From IMG/VR virus record IMGVR_UViG_3300020460_000012: 64,000 bases of DNA. One strand, written 5' to 3'. The stretch is from a virus. Taxonomy: Duplodnaviria > Caudoviricetes. This document shows positions 1-6,511 of the stretch, one piece after another (position 1 is the stretch's first letter; each line of letters begins with the position of its first letter). The notes under the pieces were generated by a model. The model ran no database searches. It saw only the letters and a program-made list of their open reading frames with translations, and was not told where the DNA came from. The position numbers and the translations under genes were made by a program.

Positions 1-2
1 TT

Positions 3-533
3 TATGACACAAATTTACTAAAACAAAACATTAAGAATATACAAAATTGGGAGTACTATGGGTCAGGCAGAACTAGATTAGGTGTTGTGCTTTCTGACAA
101 AGATACAATAAAGCATATAGCTTCCAAATTCAATAAACCTAAAGATATAATTTATAAAATAGAATCAAACTGTATACATCCATACGAAAGAGTGTTACCT
201 CATACTGATCACGATAGAAGAGTAACATGTAATATTCCAGTAAGTGGTGATTTTGATAATAGCTTTGTTAAGTTTTATGCTAATAATACTACTGGATCTG
301 CAATACCTGTTGCACCCAACACTACAAAACCTAACACTGCAAAGAGATATGATAATGCAGAAATGTTAGGAAAAGTTAGTTACACAAAACCTATTTGTTT
401 TGATACGCAAAATATACATGGTGTAGATAATCTAACAAAAGAAATACGTTATATTATTACTATATCATTTCGGCTAGATCTAAGCTATGAAAATATATTA
501 AATATGTACAACAATGGAGATCTGCTTAAATGA
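3..533 (+). CDS. 2OG-Fe(II)/cupin-type oxygenase-like protein, 5' partial
   Basis: Frame is open from base 3 to the stop at 533. It has HTD...H iron-ligand spacing and a C-terminal RYIITISF strand typical of double-stranded beta-helix oxygenases. Confidence 0.6.
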   Translation, partial: YDTNLLKQNIKNIQNWEYYGSGRTRLGVVLSDKDTIKHIASKFNKPKDIIYKIESNCIHPYERVLPHTDHDRRVTCNIPVSGDFDNSFVKFYANNTTGSAIPVAPNTTKPNTAKRYDNAEMLGKVSYTKPICFDTQNIHGVDNLTKEIRYIITISFRLDLSYENILNMYNNGDLLK

Positions 534-1222
534 TTCAAGGATATGAAATAATCAAAAATTGCTTTGATCCTGTTGATCTTGCAAAGTGTAGTCAAGATCT
601 TCTTGATAGGAAAGAAGATTCGTATATCTATGAACATGATGGTAGTATAAGGAGTGTGTTTGCACCACATTGGTATAATAAAAATGTTGAAAAGTTTGTG
701 TATAATAATCCTGCAATTCCTCGTATAAAAGAATTAATAGCAGATGAAATATATGTGCATCAAGTACATTTTAATTACAAATTAGCAGGTGTAGGCGGAG
801 AATATGCATGGCATAGCGATTATACATTTTGGCATTACTATGATGGCATGCCCAATCCAAACGCTATAAGTGCCCTGTATCTTTTGGACGACATGACAGA
901 TGAAAATGGACCATTAGAAGTAAAGATTAATAGTCATAAAGGACCAGTCCAAAAACCTCCAAAAGGGGAGTGGACTATAAAGCATGACAGTAAGGAACTA
1001 CCTATAAAAACACCGTCTAAGACTGCATATAAGCGTCATACAGTGCTTGGCAAAGCTGGTGATGTAGTTTTGATGCATGCTAATTTACTACACGCTAGCA
1101 AGGCAAATAAGAGCCATAAAAACCGAAAAGTGCTATTTATATGCTATAATTCGCTAAAAAACGCCACGACAGAGGCGTTAAGACCTGGTTATATTACCCT
1201 AAAAAATTTTAAGACTGTTTAG
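530..1222 (+). CDS. Phytanoyl-CoA dioxygenase family (EctD-like) hydroxylase
   Basis: WHSDYTFWHYYDGMP, NGPLEV..NSH and distal MHANLLHAS motifs match the PhyH/EctD family. Confidence 0.8.
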   Translation: MIQGYEIIKNCFDPVDLAKCSQDLLDRKEDSYIYEHDGSIRSVFAPHWYNKNVEKFVYNNPAIPRIKELIADEIYVHQVHFNYKLAGVGGEYAWHSDYTFWHYYDGMPNPNAISALYLLDDMTDENGPLEVKINSHKGPVQKPPKGEWTIKHDSKELPIKTPSKTAYKRHTVLGKAGDVVLMHANLLHASKANKSHKNRKVLFICYNSLKNATTEALRPGYITLKNFKTV

Positions 1223-2345
1223 TAATGTTGATGTGTGTTAGTACGTTTTCGTACTTTATCTCGGCATTTAAGAGCCTTTTATCAGTGGTGATTGCATAGC
1301 CATTTAAGCCTACAAGTAAGTCCAAACGCCTTAAGTATTGTTGTTGATTTGGTAGTTTGAGCTCATCATATTCTACTCCAGGACGCATAGATACTTTATA
1401 TTTTCCTTTTCCTAAGTTAAAATATCTAAATACCACTGCTTTATCAAGCTTAATTTTTTCTTTTGTCTTATGTACAATACTATCCATTAATATTCTATTA
1501 TAATTACAATTGGCAGAATATTTTATTATAGTTTGTCCACTTGTACTTAATCTTGGACTAAAGTCTACAAGATATGGAACATTATCACGGACTACAAAAT
1601 CAGCCATAAAAGGACCATTATTATAGTCTAAGCTTTCGCACATAATCTTGCAATAATTTCCTATATCACACTGTACAGACGTATCTACTTTGCTAGGCCA
1701 AGTAAACCCTGTTTCAGCTCTAAACGGAAGATCACTAATTTCTATGTCATATATACAGTCTAAAATATATTCTCCATCTACTATTCTGCCTGATACACTT
1801 ACAGTTGGCCCTTCAATAAACTCTTGGTATATGTAATGGGAGTTTAGATCATTATAATGTATATCATCCAAAAAGTATCTATATTCACTCCAATTGTTTA
1901 ACACTTTGATACCGATCCCGCCAGTGCCGTTAGCAGGTTTTGCTACCACAGGAAATTGTCTTCTTAGTTTTAAATGGGTTATTGGTACAGGTATACCAAT
2001 ATTATATGCATGGTTAGTATAATTTTCTTTACTACTTAATATATCACATTGCTGTTTGTTAATACCTACTAGATCATGAATATATGGCAACATCATATCA
2101 TTATACAAAGGAAAAATATAATCAATTTTGTGTGTAGATATAATTTCTCTAAGTTGATTTGCAAGTTCCTTTCTATCATCGGTGCTAATAATAAAATTAG
2201 GAATTTTATCTGGTACAGTAGGTAGTAGTTTGTCTAAAAAATCACTTACATGTGTCTGCCATGTATATAACTTATAATTGTTTAGTTCTTGTGTAGTGTA
2301 TCTTAAATTATCACTTTGATAGTTTATAATTACTTTAGGAGCCAT
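1209..2345 (-). CDS. ATP-grasp ligase (amino-acid/peptide ligase type)
   Basis: FPVVAKPANGTGGIGI, YQEFIEGPTVSV and ADFVV..VDFSPRL ATP-grasp motifs. Confidence 0.8.
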   Translation of the reverse strand: MAPKVIINYQSDNLRYTTQELNNYKLYTWQTHVSDFLDKLLPTVPDKIPNFIISTDDRKELANQLREIISTHKIDYIFPLYNDMMLPYIHDLVGINKQQCDILSSKENYTNHAYNIGIPVPITHLKLRRQFPVVAKPANGTGGIGIKVLNNWSEYRYFLDDIHYNDLNSHYIYQEFIEGPTVSVSGRIVDGEYILDCIYDIEISDLPFRAETGFTWPSKVDTSVQCDIGNYCKIMCESLDYNNGPFMADFVVRDNVPYLVDFSPRLSTSGQTIIKYSANCNYNRILMDSIVHKTKEKIKLDKAVVFRYFNLGKGKYKVSMRPGVEYDELKLPNQQQYLRRLDLLVGLNGYAITTDKRLLNAEIKYENVLTHINITKQS

Positions 2346-2946
2346 ATGTAACCTTATCCCTCATAAATGTGTTCATATAGTGAAATTTCATACTAACAAA
2401 TCTTATTGTTACATCATACGGTAAAGGCTTACCTCCTAAGCAATGATCATACAATTTGTTTCCAGTCATATGTCCTGCTTTTACATATGCGGCATCTGTA
2501 ATATTATATTTTTCATCGTACAATTTACCCATCTTATCACCAAACTTTGATACATTTTGTCCTTGTAGTTGATTGCTTCCTTTTTTACTTACATTGTCTA
2601 TGTCAAATTTTCTAATCCAAAAAGCACCCCACTTTCCTCTTTCTTCACAATCGTCTATTTGGAACTTTACAAGTTTCGATATATTTTTTATATTAGTAAA
2701 ATGACTTTGATCCCGTCTTGCTAGCAAAGTATCAGTAGTAGTCCAAGGCATATTAGGCAAGTTGTTGTTTGCAATTACTGCTTGTATTTCATCGTCATGT
2801 ATAGATGCATATACATTTCTATCATCTGCAATGTATTTTACATTTTGCCATTGTGGATCTTTTTGCAGTGAGTGTAATTCAATTTGCGTATTAATAAATT
2901 TATAAAACATTTCTTTATGTTCGAAAGTTAGTTTAACACACTTCAT
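2335..2946 (-). CDS. Hypothetical protein (possibly acyltransferase/GNAT-like)
   Basis: 203-aa ORF coupled to both neighbours. The fold guess is weak. Confidence 0.5.
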   Translation of the reverse strand: MKCVKLTFEHKEMFYKFINTQIELHSLQKDPQWQNVKYIADDRNVYASIHDDEIQAVIANNNLPNMPWTTTDTLLARRDQSHFTNIKNISKLVKFQIDDCEERGKWGAFWIRKFDIDNVSKKGSNQLQGQNVSKFGDKMGKLYDEKYNITDAAYVKAGHMTGNKLYDHCLGGKPLPYDVTIRFVSMKFHYMNTFMRDKVTYGS

Positions 2947-3881
2947 TAGTATCCGCCTTCATTTCTTAATACATGTTCGAAGAAAGGAGCTACAGTCCAA
3001 TTTTCAGTTAATCTACCCCTATTAGGATTATCATGGTCAACAACACCGTCGTCATTTACAGACCAATCTACTAATCGAATTAAGATAGTACCTATTCTTG
3101 TTTTATATTCAAACATTCTACTAGTCATTCTATCGCCATCTTGCGGACCTGCTTTAACTACTCCACTACTTGTTTCAAAAATATTTTCTTTTTTTACTCC
3201 TAGTTCTTTTACAGCTAAGTCCATTAGTTCTTCCATTGAATAACTACTATCTTGCATATGTCTACCAATAAGTCCTACACTTTTCATACGAAGCACAGGT
3301 GTTATTCTATTATAAGGAGCAGTAGTATTAAAATTTATTCCACTTTTTTCTGCAAGATCAGTGAAAACTTCTACTTGTCTACGCATTGTCCTTTCATTTA
3401 CACCTTTTGCAATAATTGTTCCTGTATTCACAGGTAATCTAGCATCGAAAATATTTTTTAAAGCTCTTACTTTTGCAGTCGCCCATTTACCTTCATCTAG
3501 TATTTTATAAACTTCGTCGTCGTCTGCACCATTCATTGAATGTAATAATAAACGCAATCCAGCATCTTTTAATTTTTGAACATATTCTGGTCTTGCTAGT
3601 TTCAGTCCATTAGTTGTTACACTAGGTCTGTGACCGTATTTTTTAACTGCGGTAATTATTTCTGGTAGATCTTCACGCATAGTAGGTTCTGCTCCGATAA
3701 TACGTATGTAAGATCTAAAAGGTAATCGCTGTAAAAAATCAAATAGTTTATGTTTGTCTAAATCAGGTATATTCCGATTAGGAATATAACAGTTAGCACA
3801 TTCCATTTGACATTTATGTGTAATATCAACTACAATATTAGAAAAGGTATTGTTTTCTGGTTGAAGTTCGAAATACTTCAT
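2946..3881 (-). CDS. Radical SAM enzyme (MoaA-like N-terminus, no SPASM domain)
   Basis: CQMECANC (CxxxCxxC) and IIGAEPT motifs. Start moved to the ATG at 3881, directly after the upstream stop. Confidence 0.85.
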   Translation of the reverse strand: MKYFELQPENNTFSNIVVDITHKCQMECANCYIPNRNIPDLDKHKLFDFLQRLPFRSYIRIIGAEPTMREDLPEIITAVKKYGHRPSVTTNGLKLARPEYVQKLKDAGLRLLLHSMNGADDDEVYKILDEGKWATAKVRALKNIFDARLPVNTGTIIAKGVNERTMRRQVEVFTDLAEKSGINFNTTAPYNRITPVLRMKSVGLIGRHMQDSSYSMEELMDLAVKELGVKKENIFETSSGVVKAGPQDGDRMTSRMFEYKTRIGTILIRLVDWSVNDDGVVDHDNPNRGRLTENWTVAPFFEHVLRNEGGY

Positions 3882-3882
3882 A

Positions 3883-4581
3883 CTAGATCCAGAACTGCAC
3901 TCGCCACAGTGTTCTCGATCCAGTAAAAGCATGGCGTCTATGCATTACTCTTATATTATCGTAAATAAGGATATCATTTGGTTCCCATTGATGTTCATAT
4001 ATATTCTTCTCACAATGTGTAATTAAATGACTTACATCTATATCAGTTTGTAGTGAACCAGGACTAAAGTATAAAACTTTATCTCCAGTGATATGATGTG
4101 TATGTGCAAATTTTCTTGTTTGCTTGCGTTTTTCTAGTATTCTTTTTTGTTGTTCAGTAAAACAATAGTTGTATGCATCTGGAGGAAAATAAGTACCTTC
4201 TTGATCTTCTAATTCTTGTTTGTTAGGATAAGTTTGGTATGCATCTTTCATATCTACAAAATCTGTAGTGCTTTTTTCTCCGTTTAATTTATTGTAGAGC
4301 ATTGTACCAAAATAATTTCCTCTACCATAACTCCAATCATTATGCCATTCTACATCTCCGTCTATAAAAAGATCTGTCTCACTAACAATTTGTATGGTGT
4401 TATTTTTATTTAAAACATGATTTTTTGTATGAACTAGTTTACCTAAACGTGTTGACATTTGTTCATAGTCGGCAACACTTAGAGATCGATTGCCTTTGAA
4501 CACAATTAATCCGTATTTTAATAACTCTTCTTGTAAATTTAGTTTATCGAAGGCGGTGATGTCATATACTTTTGGGGTCAA
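3883..4581 (-). CDS. TauD/TfdA family 2OG-dependent dioxygenase
   Basis: WHND...QWEPNDILIYDNIRVMHRR motif. Likely TTG start at 4581 with AGGA upstream. Confidence 0.85.
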   Translation of the reverse strand: MTPKVYDITAFDKLNLQEELLKYGLIVFKGNRSLSVADYEQMSTRLGKLVHTKNHVLNKNNTIQIVSETDLFIDGDVEWHNDWSYGRGNYFGTMLYNKLNGEKSTTDFVDMKDAYQTYPNKQELEDQEGTYFPPDAYNYCFTEQQKRILEKRKQTRKFAHTHHITGDKVLYFSPGSLQTDIDVSHLITHCEKNIYEHQWEPNDILIYDNIRVMHRRHAFTGSRTLWRVQFWI

Positions 4582-4591
4582 GCTTTTAATC

Positions 4592-4933
4592 CTAATAAGT
4601 CGTTTTTTTACTAATTTTATTATACTTATCAGTGTGTATAACTGTAGCACCTTCAAAGTGAGGTGTTGTAGTATATGAAAGAATGACGCAAGGGTCACCT
4701 ATTTCGCCTAATCTAGCACCCCCGCCATTTAATTCGAATACTCCTTGGTCCCCTTTAATTACATAGGTACTCCATCGGTTGCCTGTGTTAAGATTAACTA
4801 CATCAACTTTTTGATATTGATCTATATTAGCTTCATCTAAAAGAACACTACAGATAGTAACACTACCATCATAGTGCAATGATTTATCAGTAACTATTAT
4901 ATTTTGGATTTTGGATTGGATATATTCTTTCAT
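4592..4933 (-). CDS. panD: Aspartate 1-decarboxylase (pyruvoyl-dependent)
   Basis: SK..LHYDGSV self-cleavage site, RWSTYVI and LNGGGARL all align to PanD. Confidence 0.9.
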   Translation of the reverse strand: MKEYIQSKIQNIIVTDKSLHYDGSVTICSVLLDEANIDQYQKVDVVNLNTGNRWSTYVIKGDQGVFELNGGGARLGEIGDPCVILSYTTTPHFEGATVIHTDKYNKISKKTTY

Positions 4934-4939
4934 AGTACT

Positions 4940-4968
4940 ATTGTACTACAAAGTATACAATATGTCAA
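4940..4968 (-). promoter_or_regulatory. Sigma70-like promoter, probably giving a leaderless panD transcript
   Basis: TTGACA-17 nt-TACAAT, with the ATG only 6 nt past the -10 box and no SD. Confidence 0.7.
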
Positions 4969-4972
4969 TCAA

Positions 4973-6511
4973 TTAGTGTAAAGCTACCCAAGCTGTTCCG
5001 TCATAACCTTGGAACTTAGCAGTACCTACGTGGAAAATTATCATACCTGCTTGAGGATTTGTTACAGCTGAATTTCTTGCCGCATCGTCTGCAAAGTTAG
5101 GAACTTTCACAGGACCTGTAAATGCCGCAGTTGAATCTATTGTACCAATGGATAGTACAACTTGTTGAGTACCGTCTGCCTTCGTATTATACATCTGTAT
5201 TGAAGCAGGTATATGTGTTGCTTGTGGAGCCGCATCTACTACAGATCTAATACCAGAAGCACCTTTGTATGCTGATCCGTTGTAACCAGCCATTCCGTAA
5301 CCACCTAACACATCACCTATTTGTACAGCAGTTGGAGCTGATTTTGTTCCTCTAGCTCTAAGTACTCCCATACTTGAACCAAAGCTACTATCATTTGCAT
5401 GTAGAATTGAAACAGGTATTGTACCTTCTGTAGCAGTGTCGTTATAAATTCTTAGTGTTTTACTTCCTACTGATGCTTGACTACTTCCAACTATTGTATT
5501 TCTTGGAAATTGTATTGTACCGTTAGCCGCCTCTGTTGAAATAATAAAGTTAGTACCAGTGCTATTTGTAACCAAGTACATAGTGTTAGGGTCAGTAAGT
5601 GTACCTAAATGTACATTCCTACCTTGTACACTTTCTGATTTTACTGGACCTGTTACATAACCTGATATACCATCAATCATAGTCGACGAATCATCTGCAA
5701 AAACTGAACCTTTAAAAGTACCATTATGGTCACCATTCGAAGTTCCGTTGAATGTGCCATTAAATGTAGCAGTTTTGCTGTCAACAATTCTAGTTGAATC
5801 TGTAGCAAATATATCACCTTGCACATCACCAAAAAACTGACCAGTGTCAGCTTCGAATATTTTTACAGTACCAGCCGCAACAGATGTGTAAATATCACCT
5901 TGGAAATTACCAATAAAATCTCCATTAAATCTTGCTAGATTTGGATCATATGCTACAGTTCCGTTATCGTGTTTTAATTTGAGTCCGTTTGCTGTCTTTT
6001 CGCTTGTATCAATAAGTGTGGTAATGGAATTAACTTTTAAATCACCGCCTACTACATCACCTACAATTGAGCTAGTAATATGGTCTACCAGTAAACTACT
6101 ATCTGAACCAACAATAGATAGCCTCATTTGGCTATCAACTAATGCACTAGCAACAAAATTTGTACCATCATGCAGTAAAATATCACCATTGTTTGGTTGC
6201 CCATCTGGATAAAGTATATCAGTGTGTTGGTTGGCGTTACCAAATGATACTGATTCAAGGTTTGTAGGTCTCCAGTCTGCTGTACCGCCGTTATATGCTA
6301 AAACCTGTCCATTTGAAACTGTACCAACTGTAACATCTGAAAGGCTATTAAGGTTGCCACCACCGGCACCACCTTGTACTATATTACCGCCAGCAGTAGT
6401 TCCATCACCTATGTAAAGTGCTTTTGTATCAGTGGTGTAGATAAGCTCACCCGCTTTAGGCGTGATAAGCTGACGTTCTGCGTTAGTACCTCGTCTTAGC
6501 CTTAATGCCAT
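4973..6511 (-). CDS. Tail fibre/structural protein with Mtd-like N-terminal domain
   Basis: N-terminal LRLRRGT..GELIYTTDTKALYIGDG motif, Gly/Thr/Asp-rich repeats and a C-terminal GYDGTAWVALH. Confidence 0.7.
   Translation of the reverse strand: MALRLRRGTNAERQLITPKAGELIYTTDTKALYIGDGTTAGGNIVQGGAGGGNLNSLSDVTVGTVSNGQVLAYNGGTADWRPTNLESVSFGNANQHTDILYPDGQPNNGDILLHDGTNFVASALVDSQMRLSIVGSDSSLLVDHITSSIVGDVVGGDLKVNSITTLIDTSEKTANGLKLKHDNGTVAYDPNLARFNGDFIGNFQGDIYTSVAAGTVKIFEADTGQFFGDVQGDIFATDSTRIVDSKTATFNGTFNGTSNGDHNGTFKGSVFADDSSTMIDGISGYVTGPVKSESVQGRNVHLGTLTDPNTMYLVTNSTGTNFIISTEAANGTIQFPRNTIVGSSQASVGSKTLRIYNDTATEGTIPVSILHANDSSFGSSMGVLRARGTKSAPTAVQIGDVLGGYGMAGYNGSAYKGASGIRSVVDAAPQATHIPASIQMYNTKADGTQQVVLSIGTIDSTAAFTGPVKVPNFADDAARNSAVTNPQAGMIIFHVGTAKFQGYDGTAWVALH

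What the first reader, a model, noticed from the sequence alone, without database searches (positions are those of the whole stretch)
3..4968. Phage-borne small-molecule biosynthetic island: PanD, TauD, radical SAM, ATP-grasp and two further oxygenases
Five tightly coupled minus-strand genes (panD, TauD, rSAM, unknown, ATP-grasp) run from one sigma70-like promoter and converge on two plus-strand Fe(II)/2OG enzymes. PanD makes beta-alanine, and ATP-grasp ligases of the carnosine-synthase / L-amino-acid-ligase type form amides from such substrates. The set therefore reads as a pathway to an oxidised beta-alanyl amide or to a modification of protein or DNA, not a single auxiliary gene. No panB or panC is in the window. 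The product is inference.
Basis: partly seen in the sequence, partly recalled or inferred. Interest (0 to 1): 0.8.

Follow-up and report, generated by a model that had tools for sequence, protein, structure and literature searches.

The report
Phage beta-alanine ligation gene cassette
A lineage of giant marine phages carries a conserved gene set that most likely makes beta-alanine from aspartate and joins it by an amide bond to an unknown partner, with hydroxylating enzymes attached. It looks like a virus-encoded small-molecule pathway, but its product is still unknown.

Summary
The window lies on a 335-kb phage contig that carries a terminase and a PolB. It holds panD, TauD, a radical SAM gene, a 203-aa gene and an ATP-grasp gene, tightly coupled behind one promoter. 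This operon converges on a PhyH-family oxygenase and a small AspH-like oxygenase.

New here:
- The 203-aa "unknown" has a GNAT fold.
- The ATP-grasp is closest to L-amino-acid ligases, PurT and PurK.
- The PhyH enzyme is closest to the free-substrate hydroxylases EctD and GriE.
- About 11 divergent gene orders in marine viral contigs all keep PanD, the ATP-grasp and PhyH. Nearly all keep the GNAT-like gene.
- TauD and the radical SAM gene are an optional insert. They also occur elsewhere without PanD.
- The promoter ends 6 nt before the panD ATG in 10 of 10 loci, so the mRNA is probably leaderless.
- All 14 PanD-bearing viral contigs found put an ATP-dependent amide ligase just downstream. Ten have the ATP-grasp and four have three Amidoligase_2 domains.
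- The MAG lineage lacks panB, panC and panD, which argues against a pantothenate role.

Beta-alanine ligation is well supported. The product and the acceptor remain inferred. The scan had already noted the short panD-GNAT-ATP-grasp form on other DNA (e1-5410688, e1-5410699, e1-5410709).

The parts
1..533 (+). orf186 (186 aa; its ATG lies 27 nt before window position 1). A divergent AspH/LpxO-like cupin and probable Fe(II)/2OG oxygenase.
   Evidence: The start was read from L001. HxD...H-x9-R is invariant in 8 homologues. Seven of 8 members weakly match PF05118 (best E 8.8e-05). In some relatives a paralogue sits directly after panD.
530..1222 (+). PhyH-family Fe(II)/2OG hydroxylase of the EctD/GriE-like clade, which acts on free small molecules (230 aa).
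   Evidence: Pfam PhyH scores 91.3 bits. The NCBIfam ectoine hydroxylase model scores 111.7 bits, below its 336.5 cut-off. The profile's best PDB hits are EctD 3emr (9.6e-40), GriE 5nch and EctD 4mhr. H95, D97 and H183 are invariant.
1209..2345 (-). ATP-grasp carboxylate-amine ligase (378 aa) of the L-amino-acid-ligase / PurT / PurK structural class.
   Evidence: Pfam ATP-grasp_3 and ATP-grasp_4 match. The AF2 model has pLDDT 86.8. Structural matches are 3vot at Z 31.7, PurT at 30.0, YwfE/BacD at 29.7 and PurK at 29.3. The profile hits 3vot at 7.8e-10. The family is seen only in viral and metagenomic contigs.
2335..2946 (-). GNAT-fold protein (203 aa) with no Pfam match; a core member of the cassette.
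   Evidence: The AF2 model has pLDDT 68.5 and pTM 0.67. All Foldseek and VIA hits are GNAT acyltransferases, with Z 10.6-13.3. Homologues at 22-58% identity sit in the same position in nearly all related loci.
2946..3881 (-). Radical SAM enzyme with a single cluster (311 aa); an optional module member.
   Evidence: C24-x3-C28-x2-C31 (positions in the 311-aa protein) is invariant. There is no further Cys in the sequence. The nearest solved relatives are GDGT-MAS 7tol (9.1e-20) and MoaA. Homologues at 40-74% identity occur in viral contigs with or without PanD.
3883..4581 (-). TauD/TfdA-family Fe(II)/2OG oxygenase (232 aa from the TTG at 4581); an optional module member.
   Evidence: Pfam TauD scores 84.9 bits. 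H80, D82, H214 and R223/R227 are invariant. The nearest solved relatives are TfdA, ScoE and TauD, all weak. It travels with the radical SAM gene.
4592..4933 (-). PanD, a pyruvoyl-dependent aspartate 1-decarboxylase (113 aa).
   Evidence: Pfam scores 100.8 bits. Alignment to E. coli PanD 1ppy keeps K9, Y22, G24-S25, R54, T57, Y58 and N72. These residues are invariant in 5 phage homologues. It is the only PanD in the genome bin.
4940..4968 (-). Sigma-70-type promoter TTGACA-17-TACAAT. Its -10 box ends 6 nt before the panD ATG and there is no Shine-Dalgarno sequence, so the mRNA is probably leaderless.
   Evidence: The same layout (TTGACA, 16-17 nt, TAnAAT-like box, 6 nt, ATG) is kept in 10 of 10 loci of the lineage, whatever gene lies upstream.

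Best explanation
This is a modular biosynthetic cassette specific to a lineage of marine jumbo phages.

The invariant core is PanD, a GNAT-fold protein, an ATP-grasp ligase of the L-amino-acid-ligase/PurT type, and an EctD/GriE-like hydroxylase transcribed convergently. A small AspH-like oxygenase is usually present too.

Proposed mechanism:
1. PanD converts host L-aspartate to beta-alanine (inferred from intact catalytic residues).
2. The ATP-grasp forms an acyl phosphate and makes an amide bond between beta-alanine and a second small molecule (inferred from family and linkage).
3. The GNAT-fold protein transfers an acyl group to a free amine of the substrate or product, or otherwise handles beta-alanine (inferred from fold only).
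4. The 2OG oxygenases hydroxylate the substrate or product.

TauD and the radical SAM gene, and in relatives a second TauD, a desaturase-like gene or a sulfotransferase, fill a variable slot between panD and the GNAT gene. They act as optional tailoring enzymes, or possibly as an independent cargo module.

The operon has its own sigma-70-type promoter, separate from the tail-fibre gene upstream. It probably gives a leaderless mRNA.

The expected product is a hydroxylated, possibly N-acylated, beta-alanyl amide made in the infected cell. Its role is unknown.
For: - Families and catalytic motifs are intact.
- Genes are tightly coupled or overlapping.
- About 11 gene orders at 38-76% ATP-grasp identity all keep PanD upstream and PhyH convergent downstream. 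A still more distant ATP-grasp, about 30% identical, does the same.
- A scan starting from PanD found 14 viral loci. Ten have this ATP-grasp. The other four have PanD followed by three Amidoligase_2 domains plus a methyltransferase. That is a non-homologous amide ligase in the same place.
- Rhodococcus phage Jace (record NC_047974, organism field 'Gordonia phage Jace') flanks its PanD with a P-loop ATPase-GNAT fusion and a CoA-transferase-like gene.
- The ATP-grasp and the PhyH enzyme are each closest to enzymes that act on free small molecules.
- The promoter and its 6-nt distance to the ATG are conserved in 10 of 10 loci.
- The bin and four relatives have no PanB, PanC or cellular PanD.
- The ATP-grasp family was not found in 200 genomes of the same order or in a pattern scan of GTDB species genomes.
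- Near-identical DNA occurs in marine metagenomes from 10 studies.
Against: - No enzyme activity, product or transcript has been observed, and no RNA run holds the stretch.
- All related loci belong to one phage lineage with conserved flanks. Part of the linkage may therefore be inherited gene order, not selection for function.
- The ATP-grasp's structural lead over PurT and PurK is small (Z 31.7 against 30.0 and 29.3), and it misses every NCBIfam cut-off.
- The GNAT-fold model is only of moderate quality, and no acyl-CoA motif is evident.
- TauD and the radical SAM gene occur without PanD elsewhere, so they may use another substrate.
- Desaturase-like genes lie in the slot and flank. A distant ATP-grasp relative sits in a cluster rich in carrier-protein and desaturase genes. 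Both hint at lipid substrates.
- The host is uncertain. Co-binning with a Marinimicrobia MAG does not prove infection.
Confidence: 0.5

Rival explanations
1. The cassette modifies a macromolecule and does not make a free metabolite. The ligase would add beta-alanine to a carboxylate on DNA, on a virion or host protein, or on a lipid or glycan head group. One DNA candidate is 7-carboxy-7-deazaguanine, made by this phage's DpdA/QueE genes. The oxygenases, radical SAM enzyme, sulfotransferase and desaturase-like enzymes would then sculpt the appendage, as in thymidine hypermodification.
For: - Phage DNA hypermodification clusters show the same combinatorial mix of radical SAM enzymes, decarboxylases and acetyltransferases. 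They also hold amidoligase-domain genes of unknown role (PMC8989533, read).
- Earlier notes report a 7-deazaguanine cluster without queC in this window (not re-tested here).
- A PP-loop ATPase with a QueC-like N-terminus is a constant neighbour.
- PanD in the other two phage lineages lies among DNA-metabolism genes: UvdE and a 5'-3' exonuclease in one, and ParB-like and exonuclease genes in the other.
- Desaturase-like genes, an AspH/LpxO-like oxygenase and a radical SAM enzyme nearest to the lipid enzyme GDGT-MAS suggest lipid substrates.
- A distant ATP-grasp relative lies beside an acyl carrier protein.
- The cassette always follows the Mtd_N fibre gene.
Against: - The ATP-grasp and PhyH enzymes are closest to enzymes of free small molecules, not to protein- or nucleic-acid-modifying types.
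- PanD enzymes are known to act on free aspartate (established knowledge).
- No amino-acid:DNA transferase or 5-hmdU kinase was seen in the cassette.
- The cassette's own sigma-70 promoter separates it from the fibre gene.
- The 7-deazaguanine genes lie more than 11 kb away.
Confidence: 0.25
2. The genes are not one pathway. A hypervariable cargo slot after the tail-fibre gene has collected independent auxiliary genes. PanD would simply raise beta-alanine supply, for example for coenzyme A, and the oxygenases and radical SAM enzyme would have unrelated targets.
For: - The slot content varies greatly between relatives.
- The radical SAM + TauD module sits after a fibre gene without PanD in L014 and occurs alone in many contigs.
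- Marine phages are known to carry many stand-alone 2OG oxygenases (general knowledge).
Against: - PanD, the GNAT-like gene, the ATP-grasp and PhyH stay together through every rearrangement, with overlapping reading frames.
- PanD is paired with an amide ligase in 14 of 14 viral loci, using two unrelated ligase families.
- PanB and PanC are absent from the bin and four relatives, so beta-alanine could not enter pantothenate there.
Confidence: 0.12
3. The GNAT-fold protein is not a transferase. It would be a PanZ/PanM-like factor that binds pro-PanD and triggers or controls its self-cleavage. The chemical core would then be only PanD plus the ligase.
For: - PanZ is a GNAT-fold protein. PanZ chains 4cry_B and 4crz_B match the model at Z 10.7 over 116-117 of their 127-128 residues.
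- The GNAT gene is linked to panD in this lineage.
- A GNAT domain also lies next to PanD in phage Jace.
- No canonical acyl-CoA loop is evident in the alignment.
Against: - PanZ ranks equal with dozens of ordinary acetyltransferases.
- The protein is about 75 residues longer than PanZ.
- PanZ-dependent PanDs are known only from some gammaproteobacteria (PMC4537548, abstract seen).
- The complex prediction gave no verdict, so it counts neither way.
Confidence: 0.13

Closest known systems
L-amino-acid ligases (BL00235, YwfE/BacD) and carnosine synthase: ATP-grasp enzymes that make dipeptides from free substrates
   Same: The three-domain ATP-grasp fold is shared. BL00235 (3vot) is the best structural and sequence match (Z 31.7; 7.8e-10). 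Carnosine synthase sets the precedent for beta-alanine as an ATP-grasp substrate (established knowledge).
   Different: Identity is only 14-16%. PurT and PurK score almost as well. No curated family cut-off is reached. The enzyme is linked to PanD, a GNAT-fold protein and 2OG oxygenases, which known ligases of this type are not. The substrates are untested.
Butirosin (BtrI/J/K/O/H) and closthioamide (CtaD/E/F/G) pathways: an ATP-grasp plus a decarboxylase build omega-amino-acyl amides, with hydroxylase and acyl-transfer steps
   Same: The logic is the same. An acidic amino acid is decarboxylated to an omega-amino acid (GABA or beta-alanine). It is joined by an ATP-grasp and then hydroxylated or transferred (PMC7183216).
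   Different: Those pathways work on a carrier protein and use a PLP decarboxylase that rejects free aspartate. This cassette has a pyruvoyl PanD, no carrier-protein gene and no papain-like ligase. It is also viral.
Phage thymidine hypermodification clusters (M6, ViI, PaMx11, SP10)
   Same: They are phage-encoded and combinatorial. They mix radical SAM enzymes, decarboxylases and acetyltransferases, and metagenomic relatives add amidoligase-domain genes (PMC8989533).
   Different: No 5-hmdU DNA kinase or amino-acid:DNA transferase was seen in the cassette. The decarboxylase here is pyruvoyl PanD, not a PLP enzyme. The radical SAM enzyme is MoaA/GDGT-MAS-like, not like spore photoproduct lyase.
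Ectoine pathway tailoring (EctA GNAT acetyltransferase, EctD hydroxylase)
   Same: The PhyH-family enzyme's best solved relative is EctD. A GNAT-fold protein is encoded in the same cassette.
   Different: The ectoine hydroxylase equivalog cut-off is missed by far (111.7 against 336.5 bits). There are no EctB or EctC homologues. The small cupin-like protein has a 2OG-oxygenase motif.
Cellular pantothenate pathway (panB, panC, panD)
   Same: PanD with all catalytic residues.
   Different: panB and panC are missing from the window, from the 89%-complete bin and from four related genomes. The partner is an ATP-grasp, not pantoate-beta-alanine ligase.

Membership tests
Aspartate 1-decarboxylase PanD (PF02261 / TIGR00223) | Domain match above the curated threshold | tested here: met
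   Pfam scores 100.8 bits against a cut-off of 25. The stricter NCBIfam equivalog cut-off is missed (79.3 against 106 bits).
Aspartate 1-decarboxylase PanD (PF02261 / TIGR00223) | Gly-Ser self-cleavage site that forms the pyruvoyl group, plus K9, Y22, R54, T57, Y58 and N72 (E. coli numbering) | tested here: met
   Alignment to E. coli PanD 1ppy. The residues are invariant in 5 phage homologues.
Aspartate 1-decarboxylase PanD (PF02261 / TIGR00223) | Decarboxylates free L-aspartate to beta-alanine | not testable with these tools
   Needs an enzyme assay.
L-amino-acid-ligase type ATP-grasp | Three-domain ATP-grasp fold, with the closest solved relative being an L-amino-acid ligase | tested here: met
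   The AF2 model has pLDDT 86.8. 3vot scores Z 31.7 over 365 residues. The margin is narrow: PurT 30.0 and PurK 29.3. The profile hits 3vot at 7.8e-10.
L-amino-acid-ligase type ATP-grasp | Reaches a curated family score (DdaF, PylC, RimK and others) | tested here: not met
   All NCBIfam hits are far below their cut-offs.
L-amino-acid-ligase type ATP-grasp | Joins two free amino acids or amines with ATP giving ADP + Pi; uses beta-alanine | not testable with these tools
   Needs an enzyme assay.
GNAT acyltransferases | GNAT fold | tested here: met
   Model pTM is 0.67. All top Foldseek and VIA hits are GNATs, with Z up to 13.3.
GNAT acyltransferases | Sequence-family match and the acyl-CoA pyrophosphate-binding loop (Q/R-x-x-G-x-G/A) | tested here: inconclusive
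   There is no Pfam or NCBIfam hit. No such loop is evident by eye after strand 4 in the 7-sequence alignment. The alignment is shallow and the model is of moderate quality.
Ectoine hydroxylase EctD / PhyH family | PhyH domain with an HxD...H iron triad | tested here: met
   Pfam scores 91.3 bits. H95, D97 and H183 are invariant. The best PDB hit is EctD 3emr at 9.6e-40.
Ectoine hydroxylase EctD / PhyH family | Equivalog-level score for ectoine hydroxylase | tested here: not met
   TIGR02408 scores 111.7 bits against a cut-off of 336.5.
TauD/TfdA Fe(II)/2OG oxygenases | TauD domain with an HxD...H triad and a 2OG-binding Arg | tested here: met
   Pfam scores 84.9 bits. H80, D82, H214 and R223/R227 are invariant.
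Radical SAM (SPASM/twitch subgroup considered) | CX3CX2C cluster motif | tested here: met
   C24, C28 and C31 are invariant.
Radical SAM (SPASM/twitch subgroup considered) | C-terminal auxiliary-cluster cysteines | tested here: not met
   The sequence has no cysteine after the CX3CX2C motif.
Thiotemplated ATP-grasp/decarboxylase pathways (butirosin, closthioamide) | Carrier protein (PP-binding) and a PLP-dependent decarboxylase in the cluster | tested here: not met
   No PP-binding or PLP decarboxylase hit appears in the cassette or in any related locus. The decarboxylase is the pyruvoyl PanD.
Pantothenate biosynthesis operon | panB and panC present with panD | tested here: not met
   PF02569 and PF02548 were not found in the bin or in four related genomes, while control genomes gave hits.
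Phage thymidine hypermodification cluster | 5-hmdU DNA kinase and amino-acid:DNA transferase (aGPT-Pplase) | not tested
   The cassette genes matched none of the Pfam or PHROG families of that kind. The rest of the 335-kb contig was not searched for them.

The most novel reading that the evidence does not exclude
The cassette makes a new hypermodified DNA base. The phage's own DpdA/FolE/QueE genes, which lack queC, would place 7-carboxy-7-deazaguanine in DNA. Beta-alanine from PanD would then be amide-linked to that carboxylate by the ATP-grasp or by the neighbouring QueC-like PP-loop enzyme. Oxygenases and the radical SAM enzyme would decorate it differently in different strains.
Probability: 0.07. 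Interest if true: 0.9.

Novelty: new variant of a known kind. Interest (0 to 1): 0.62.

Why it matters
Phage-encoded pathways that build a dedicated small molecule are rarely documented. I found no report of a viral PanD coupled to an amide ligase, and no cultured phage in GenBank carries this ATP-grasp. The cassette is widespread in the ocean. It has a fixed core and an exchangeable tailoring slot, which is how natural-product gene clusters diversify. If the product is a free beta-alanyl compound, infected marine cells produce a virus-specific metabolite of unknown role: an osmolyte, a signal, an inhibitor or a precursor. If it is instead attached to DNA, lipid or protein, it is a new kind of modification. 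Either way, the three- or four-gene core is small enough to test directly by expression in E. coli.

Tried and rejected
- PanD-GNAT complex prediction: no verdict (score 0.00 against a mark of 0.32). It is not used as evidence either way.
- GenBank phages: no DNA match for the first 8 kb of the window. There is no ATP-grasp homologue, and only distant radical SAM hits.
- The only true phage PanD in GenBank is in Rhodococcus phage Jace (record NC_047974, organism field 'Gordonia phage Jace'). Its neighbours are not homologous to the ATP-grasp or the GNAT-like gene here.
- The unknown ORFs of the stand-alone radical SAM/TauD module (166, 198 and 200 aa) are unrelated to the GNAT-like protein.
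- PHROGs gave nothing useful for the cassette.
- The orf186 family profile found no solved structure by sequence.
- The protein-atlas look-ups added only generic GNAT and ATP-grasp labels.
- The GTDB pattern scan and 200 genomes of the same order held no ATP-grasp relative.
- No RNA run holds the stretch, so neither expression nor the leaderless start could be checked.
- The Iyer 2009 amidoligase paper is not in the library.
- My recollection that closthioamide uses a PanD-like enzyme was wrong. CtaF is a PLP enzyme that acts on carrier-bound aspartate.
- A pantothenate-boosting role for PanD was considered and judged unlikely, because panB and panC are absent from the bin lineage. The host assignment is uncertain, however.

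Full report
**Setting**

The window is the reverse strand of positions 93,494-157,493 of a 335-kb contig (C57). The contig sits in an 89%-complete, 2.36-Mb metagenome bin. It carries a large terminase, a phage-type PolB, an exonuclease and other phage families. It also has 10 tRNAs and a tmRNA, in long one-directional gene blocks. It is therefore a jumbo-phage genome or a large part of one.

By RpoB, the rest of the bin belongs to the Marinimicrobia (Neomarinimicrobiota). Co-binning does not prove that this is the host. Near-identical DNA is held by marine metagenomes from 10 studies, and no RNA run holds it.

**The observation**

On the minus strand, in order:
- panD, 4592-4933
- TauD, 3883-4581
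- radical SAM, 2946-3881
- a 203-aa gene, 2335-2946
- ATP-grasp, 1209-2345

I corrected two starts. TauD begins at a TTG preceded by AGGA, which gives the 232 aa of its homologues. The radical SAM gene begins at the ATG one base after the TauD stop. The genes are separated by at most 10 nt or overlap.

On the plus strand there are two genes:
- A 186-aa gene starts 27 nt before the window and overlaps the start of the next gene.
- A PhyH-family gene at 530-1222 overlaps the ATP-grasp gene tail to tail by 14 nt.

The promoter TTGACA-17-TACAAT (4968-4940) is the best match in the region.

**What each protein is**

- **PanD.** It aligns with E. coli PanD and keeps the Gly-Ser cleavage site and K9, Y22, R54, T57, Y58 and N72. 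These are invariant in five phage homologues.
- **ATP-grasp.** The model is confident (pLDDT 86.8). It is closest to the L-amino-acid ligase BL00235 (Z 31.7), then PurT (30.0), YwfE/BacD (29.7) and PurK (29.3). A family profile also finds BL00235 first (7.8e-10). This is the clade of ligases that act on free small molecules, although the margin over PurT and PurK is small.
- **The 203-aa "unknown".** It has a GNAT fold. Model pTM is 0.67, and every top structural match is a GNAT acyltransferase, with Z up to 13.3. It has no sequence-family hit, and I could not see a canonical acyl-CoA loop.
- **The PhyH-family enzyme.** Its best solved relatives are ectoine hydroxylase EctD (9.6e-40), an entry deposited as phytanoyl-CoA dioxygenase (7e01, 2e-38), leucine hydroxylase GriE and, more distantly, MysH. 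The named relatives (EctD, GriE, MysH) act on free substrates. It is far below the ectoine hydroxylase equivalog cut-off.
- **The 186-aa protein.** Its family has an invariant HxD...H-x9-R motif. Seven of eight members weakly match the aspartyl/asparaginyl hydroxylase family.
- **TauD.** It keeps its iron triad and 2OG-binding arginine.
- **Radical SAM enzyme.** It has the CX3CX2C motif and no other cysteine, so no auxiliary cluster. Its nearest solved relatives are the lipid C-C-coupling enzyme GDGT-MAS and MoaA.

**Conservation and modularity**

The ATP-grasp family (71 clusters at 90% identity) is known only from metagenomic and viral contigs. It is absent from GenBank phages, from 200 genomes of the bin's order and from a pattern scan of GTDB species genomes.

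I examined related loci from IMG/VR and from metagenome assemblies. About 11 distinct gene orders exist, with ATP-grasp identity of 38-76%. One still more distant ATP-grasp, about 30% identical, shows the same pattern. All of them read: Mtd_N fibre gene, panD, a variable slot, a GNAT-like gene of about 200 aa, the ATP-grasp, then the convergent PhyH gene.

The slot holds different contents in different relatives:
- nothing (L004, L005, L046)
- TauD + radical SAM (this window)
- two TauDs + radical SAM (L141)
- two TauDs + a desaturase-like gene + radical SAM (L003, L007, L058, L143)
- an orf186 paralogue with small unknown genes (L034, L035)
- an inverted desaturase-like + radical SAM pair (L037)

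A sulfotransferase often precedes panD. The orf186 family is present in most loci, either beside PhyH or directly after panD.

In contrast, the radical SAM gene occurs in at least 10 other viral contigs with no PanD or ATP-grasp within 8 kb. There it is up to 74% identical and is followed by two TauD paralogues. In one contig the module lies directly after a fibre gene. So the five minus-strand genes are a conserved core (PanD, GNAT, ATP-grasp) with a separately mobile TauD/radical SAM module inserted into it.

**Promoter**

In 10 of 10 loci of the lineage, a TTGACA box, a 16-17 nt spacer and a TAnAAT-like box end 6 nt before the panD ATG. There is no Shine-Dalgarno sequence. This holds whether the upstream gene is the fibre gene, a sulfotransferase or an orf186 paralogue, and the bases in between vary.

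The PanD N-terminus aligns residue for residue with E. coli PanD, so the ATG is the true start. This argues for a real promoter that is independent of the fibre gene. PanD genes of the other phage lineage have ordinary ribosome-binding sites.

**Independent support for beta-alanine ligation**

A scan for PanD in viral contigs gave 14 loci. Ten belong to this lineage. In the other four, PanD is 44-46% identical. There it is followed at once by three Amidoligase_2 (glutamine-synthetase-like) domains, a methyltransferase and, further on, LuxE/LuxC-like genes.

Two unrelated families of ATP-dependent amide ligases therefore sit beside phage PanD. This is the strongest argument that beta-alanine is used as a building block. 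The scan patterns came from this lineage, so the count of 14 is not an unbiased census.

The only cultured phage with a true PanD is Rhodococcus phage Jace (record NC_047974, organism field 'Gordonia phage Jace'). It flanks PanD with a P-loop ATPase fused to a GNAT domain and with a CoA-transferase-like protein. That is a second, independent link between PanD and a GNAT.

**Against a pantothenate role**

The phage gene is the only PanD in the bin. PanC and PanB were not found in the bin or in four related genomes that are 91-96% complete. A fifth relative (84% complete) was searched for PanC and PanD only and has neither. Control genomes gave hits. If this lineage is the host, beta-alanine cannot enter pantothenate there.

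**Mechanism proposed**

- Shown: gene content, intact motifs, linkage and promoter conservation.
- Inferred: PanD makes beta-alanine from aspartate. The ATP-grasp joins it by an amide bond to a second small molecule. The GNAT-fold protein transfers an acyl group or otherwise handles beta-alanine. The EctD-like and AspH-like oxygenases hydroxylate. TauD and the radical SAM enzyme are optional tailoring steps.

The nearest known logic is the butirosin side-chain pathway and closthioamide backbone assembly. There an ATP-grasp and a decarboxylase together build GABA or beta-alanine amides (PMC7183216). Those pathways use a carrier protein and a PLP decarboxylase that rejects free aspartate, and neither is present here.

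**Rivals**

- **Modification of a macromolecule.** Phage thymidine hypermodification clusters show the same combinatorial style and contain amidoligase-domain genes of unknown role (PMC8989533). Earlier notes report a 7-deazaguanine cluster without queC in this window. A QueC-like PP-loop gene is a constant neighbour. Desaturase-like genes, the AspH/LpxO-like oxygenase and a distant ATP-grasp relative beside a carrier protein point towards lipids. The small-molecule affinities of the ATP-grasp and PhyH enzymes argue against this rival, but do not exclude it.
- **An accidental collection of cargo genes.** This is unlikely for the core, given its constancy.
- **A PanZ-like role for the GNAT protein.** This remains open. 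The complex prediction gave no verdict.

**Verdict**

The "five-gene pathway" should be re-read as a four- to five-gene conserved core plus an optional module. The product is still unknown. I found no literature on a viral PanD-ligase cassette. The scan had already noted the short panD-GNAT-ATP-grasp form in another genome.

Noticed in passing
L001:606-3487 (just left of the window; window coordinates about -3390 to -510): A PP-loop ATPase (315 aa, SGGxDS motif) with a weak match to the QueC N-terminus. Three well-conserved unknown genes follow it (224, 235 and 200 aa; the last two are paralogues). All are constant neighbours of the cassette in every related locus, and they are more conserved (64-92% identity) than the cassette itself.
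   Followed up: partly
L001:3469-6265: A B12-type radical SAM gene (489 aa) overlaps a fatty-acid-desaturase-like gene (250 aa) and is followed by a GNAT gene (187 aa). This trio is conserved in related loci. A second desaturase-like + radical SAM pairing occurs inside the variable slot of relatives.
   Followed up: partly
L053, L054, L056, L057 (IMG/VR contigs of 44-133 kb): A different phage lineage carries panD followed by three Amidoligase_2 domains, a methyltransferase, a 287-aa unknown gene and, further downstream, LuxE- and LuxC-like genes. In L053 and L054, UvdE lies directly upstream and a 5'-3' exonuclease follows the unknown gene. This looks like a second, unrelated beta-alanine-oligoamide pathway in viruses.
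   Followed up: partly
L028 (NC_047974, Rhodococcus phage Jace; organism field 'Gordonia phage Jace'), locus 2347-5112: ParB-like gp85, gp86 (annotated 'ATP binding protein', in fact a P-loop ATPase + GNAT fusion), gp87 PanD and gp88 (CoA-transferase family III-like) sit in a row. This could be a beta-alanyl-CoA / acyl-transfer system in a cultured phage.
   Followed up: partly
L008-L025 (viral contigs): A stand-alone module made of the same radical SAM gene (51-74% identical), a 166-aa unknown gene, a TauD, a 198-aa unknown gene and a second TauD. A variant has a B12 radical SAM gene, the radical SAM gene, a 200-aa unknown gene and a sulfotransferase. Neither has PanD or the ATP-grasp nearby.
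   Followed up: partly
L041/L042 (contigs up to 380 kb): A distant relative of the ATP-grasp (E 2.8e-50) lies in another jumbo-phage-sized contig. Around it are an acyl carrier protein, three or four desaturase-like genes, a fatty-acid hydroxylase, B12 and other radical SAM genes, an AspH-like oxygenase, a Rieske oxygenase, a methyltransferase and glycosyltransferases.
   Followed up: no
L043/L044: Another distant ATP-grasp relative (416 aa) sits between the large and small ribonucleotide reductase subunit genes of a phage-like contig.
   Followed up: no
G000 contig C57:42056-42400 and contig C77: The phage contig encodes a tmRNA that ARAGORN marks as permuted, with the tag ANDNYAPEMAMAA, and it has 10 tRNAs. 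Contig C77 (153 kb) carries a terminase match with the same score as the one on C57. The bin may therefore hold a second copy or strain of the phage.
   Followed up: no
window 4973-6511 (-): The gene directly upstream of the cassette is a 512-aa fibre-like protein with an Mtd_N domain. In all relatives the cassette follows this gene, and fibre length varies from 383 to 569 aa.
   Followed up: partly
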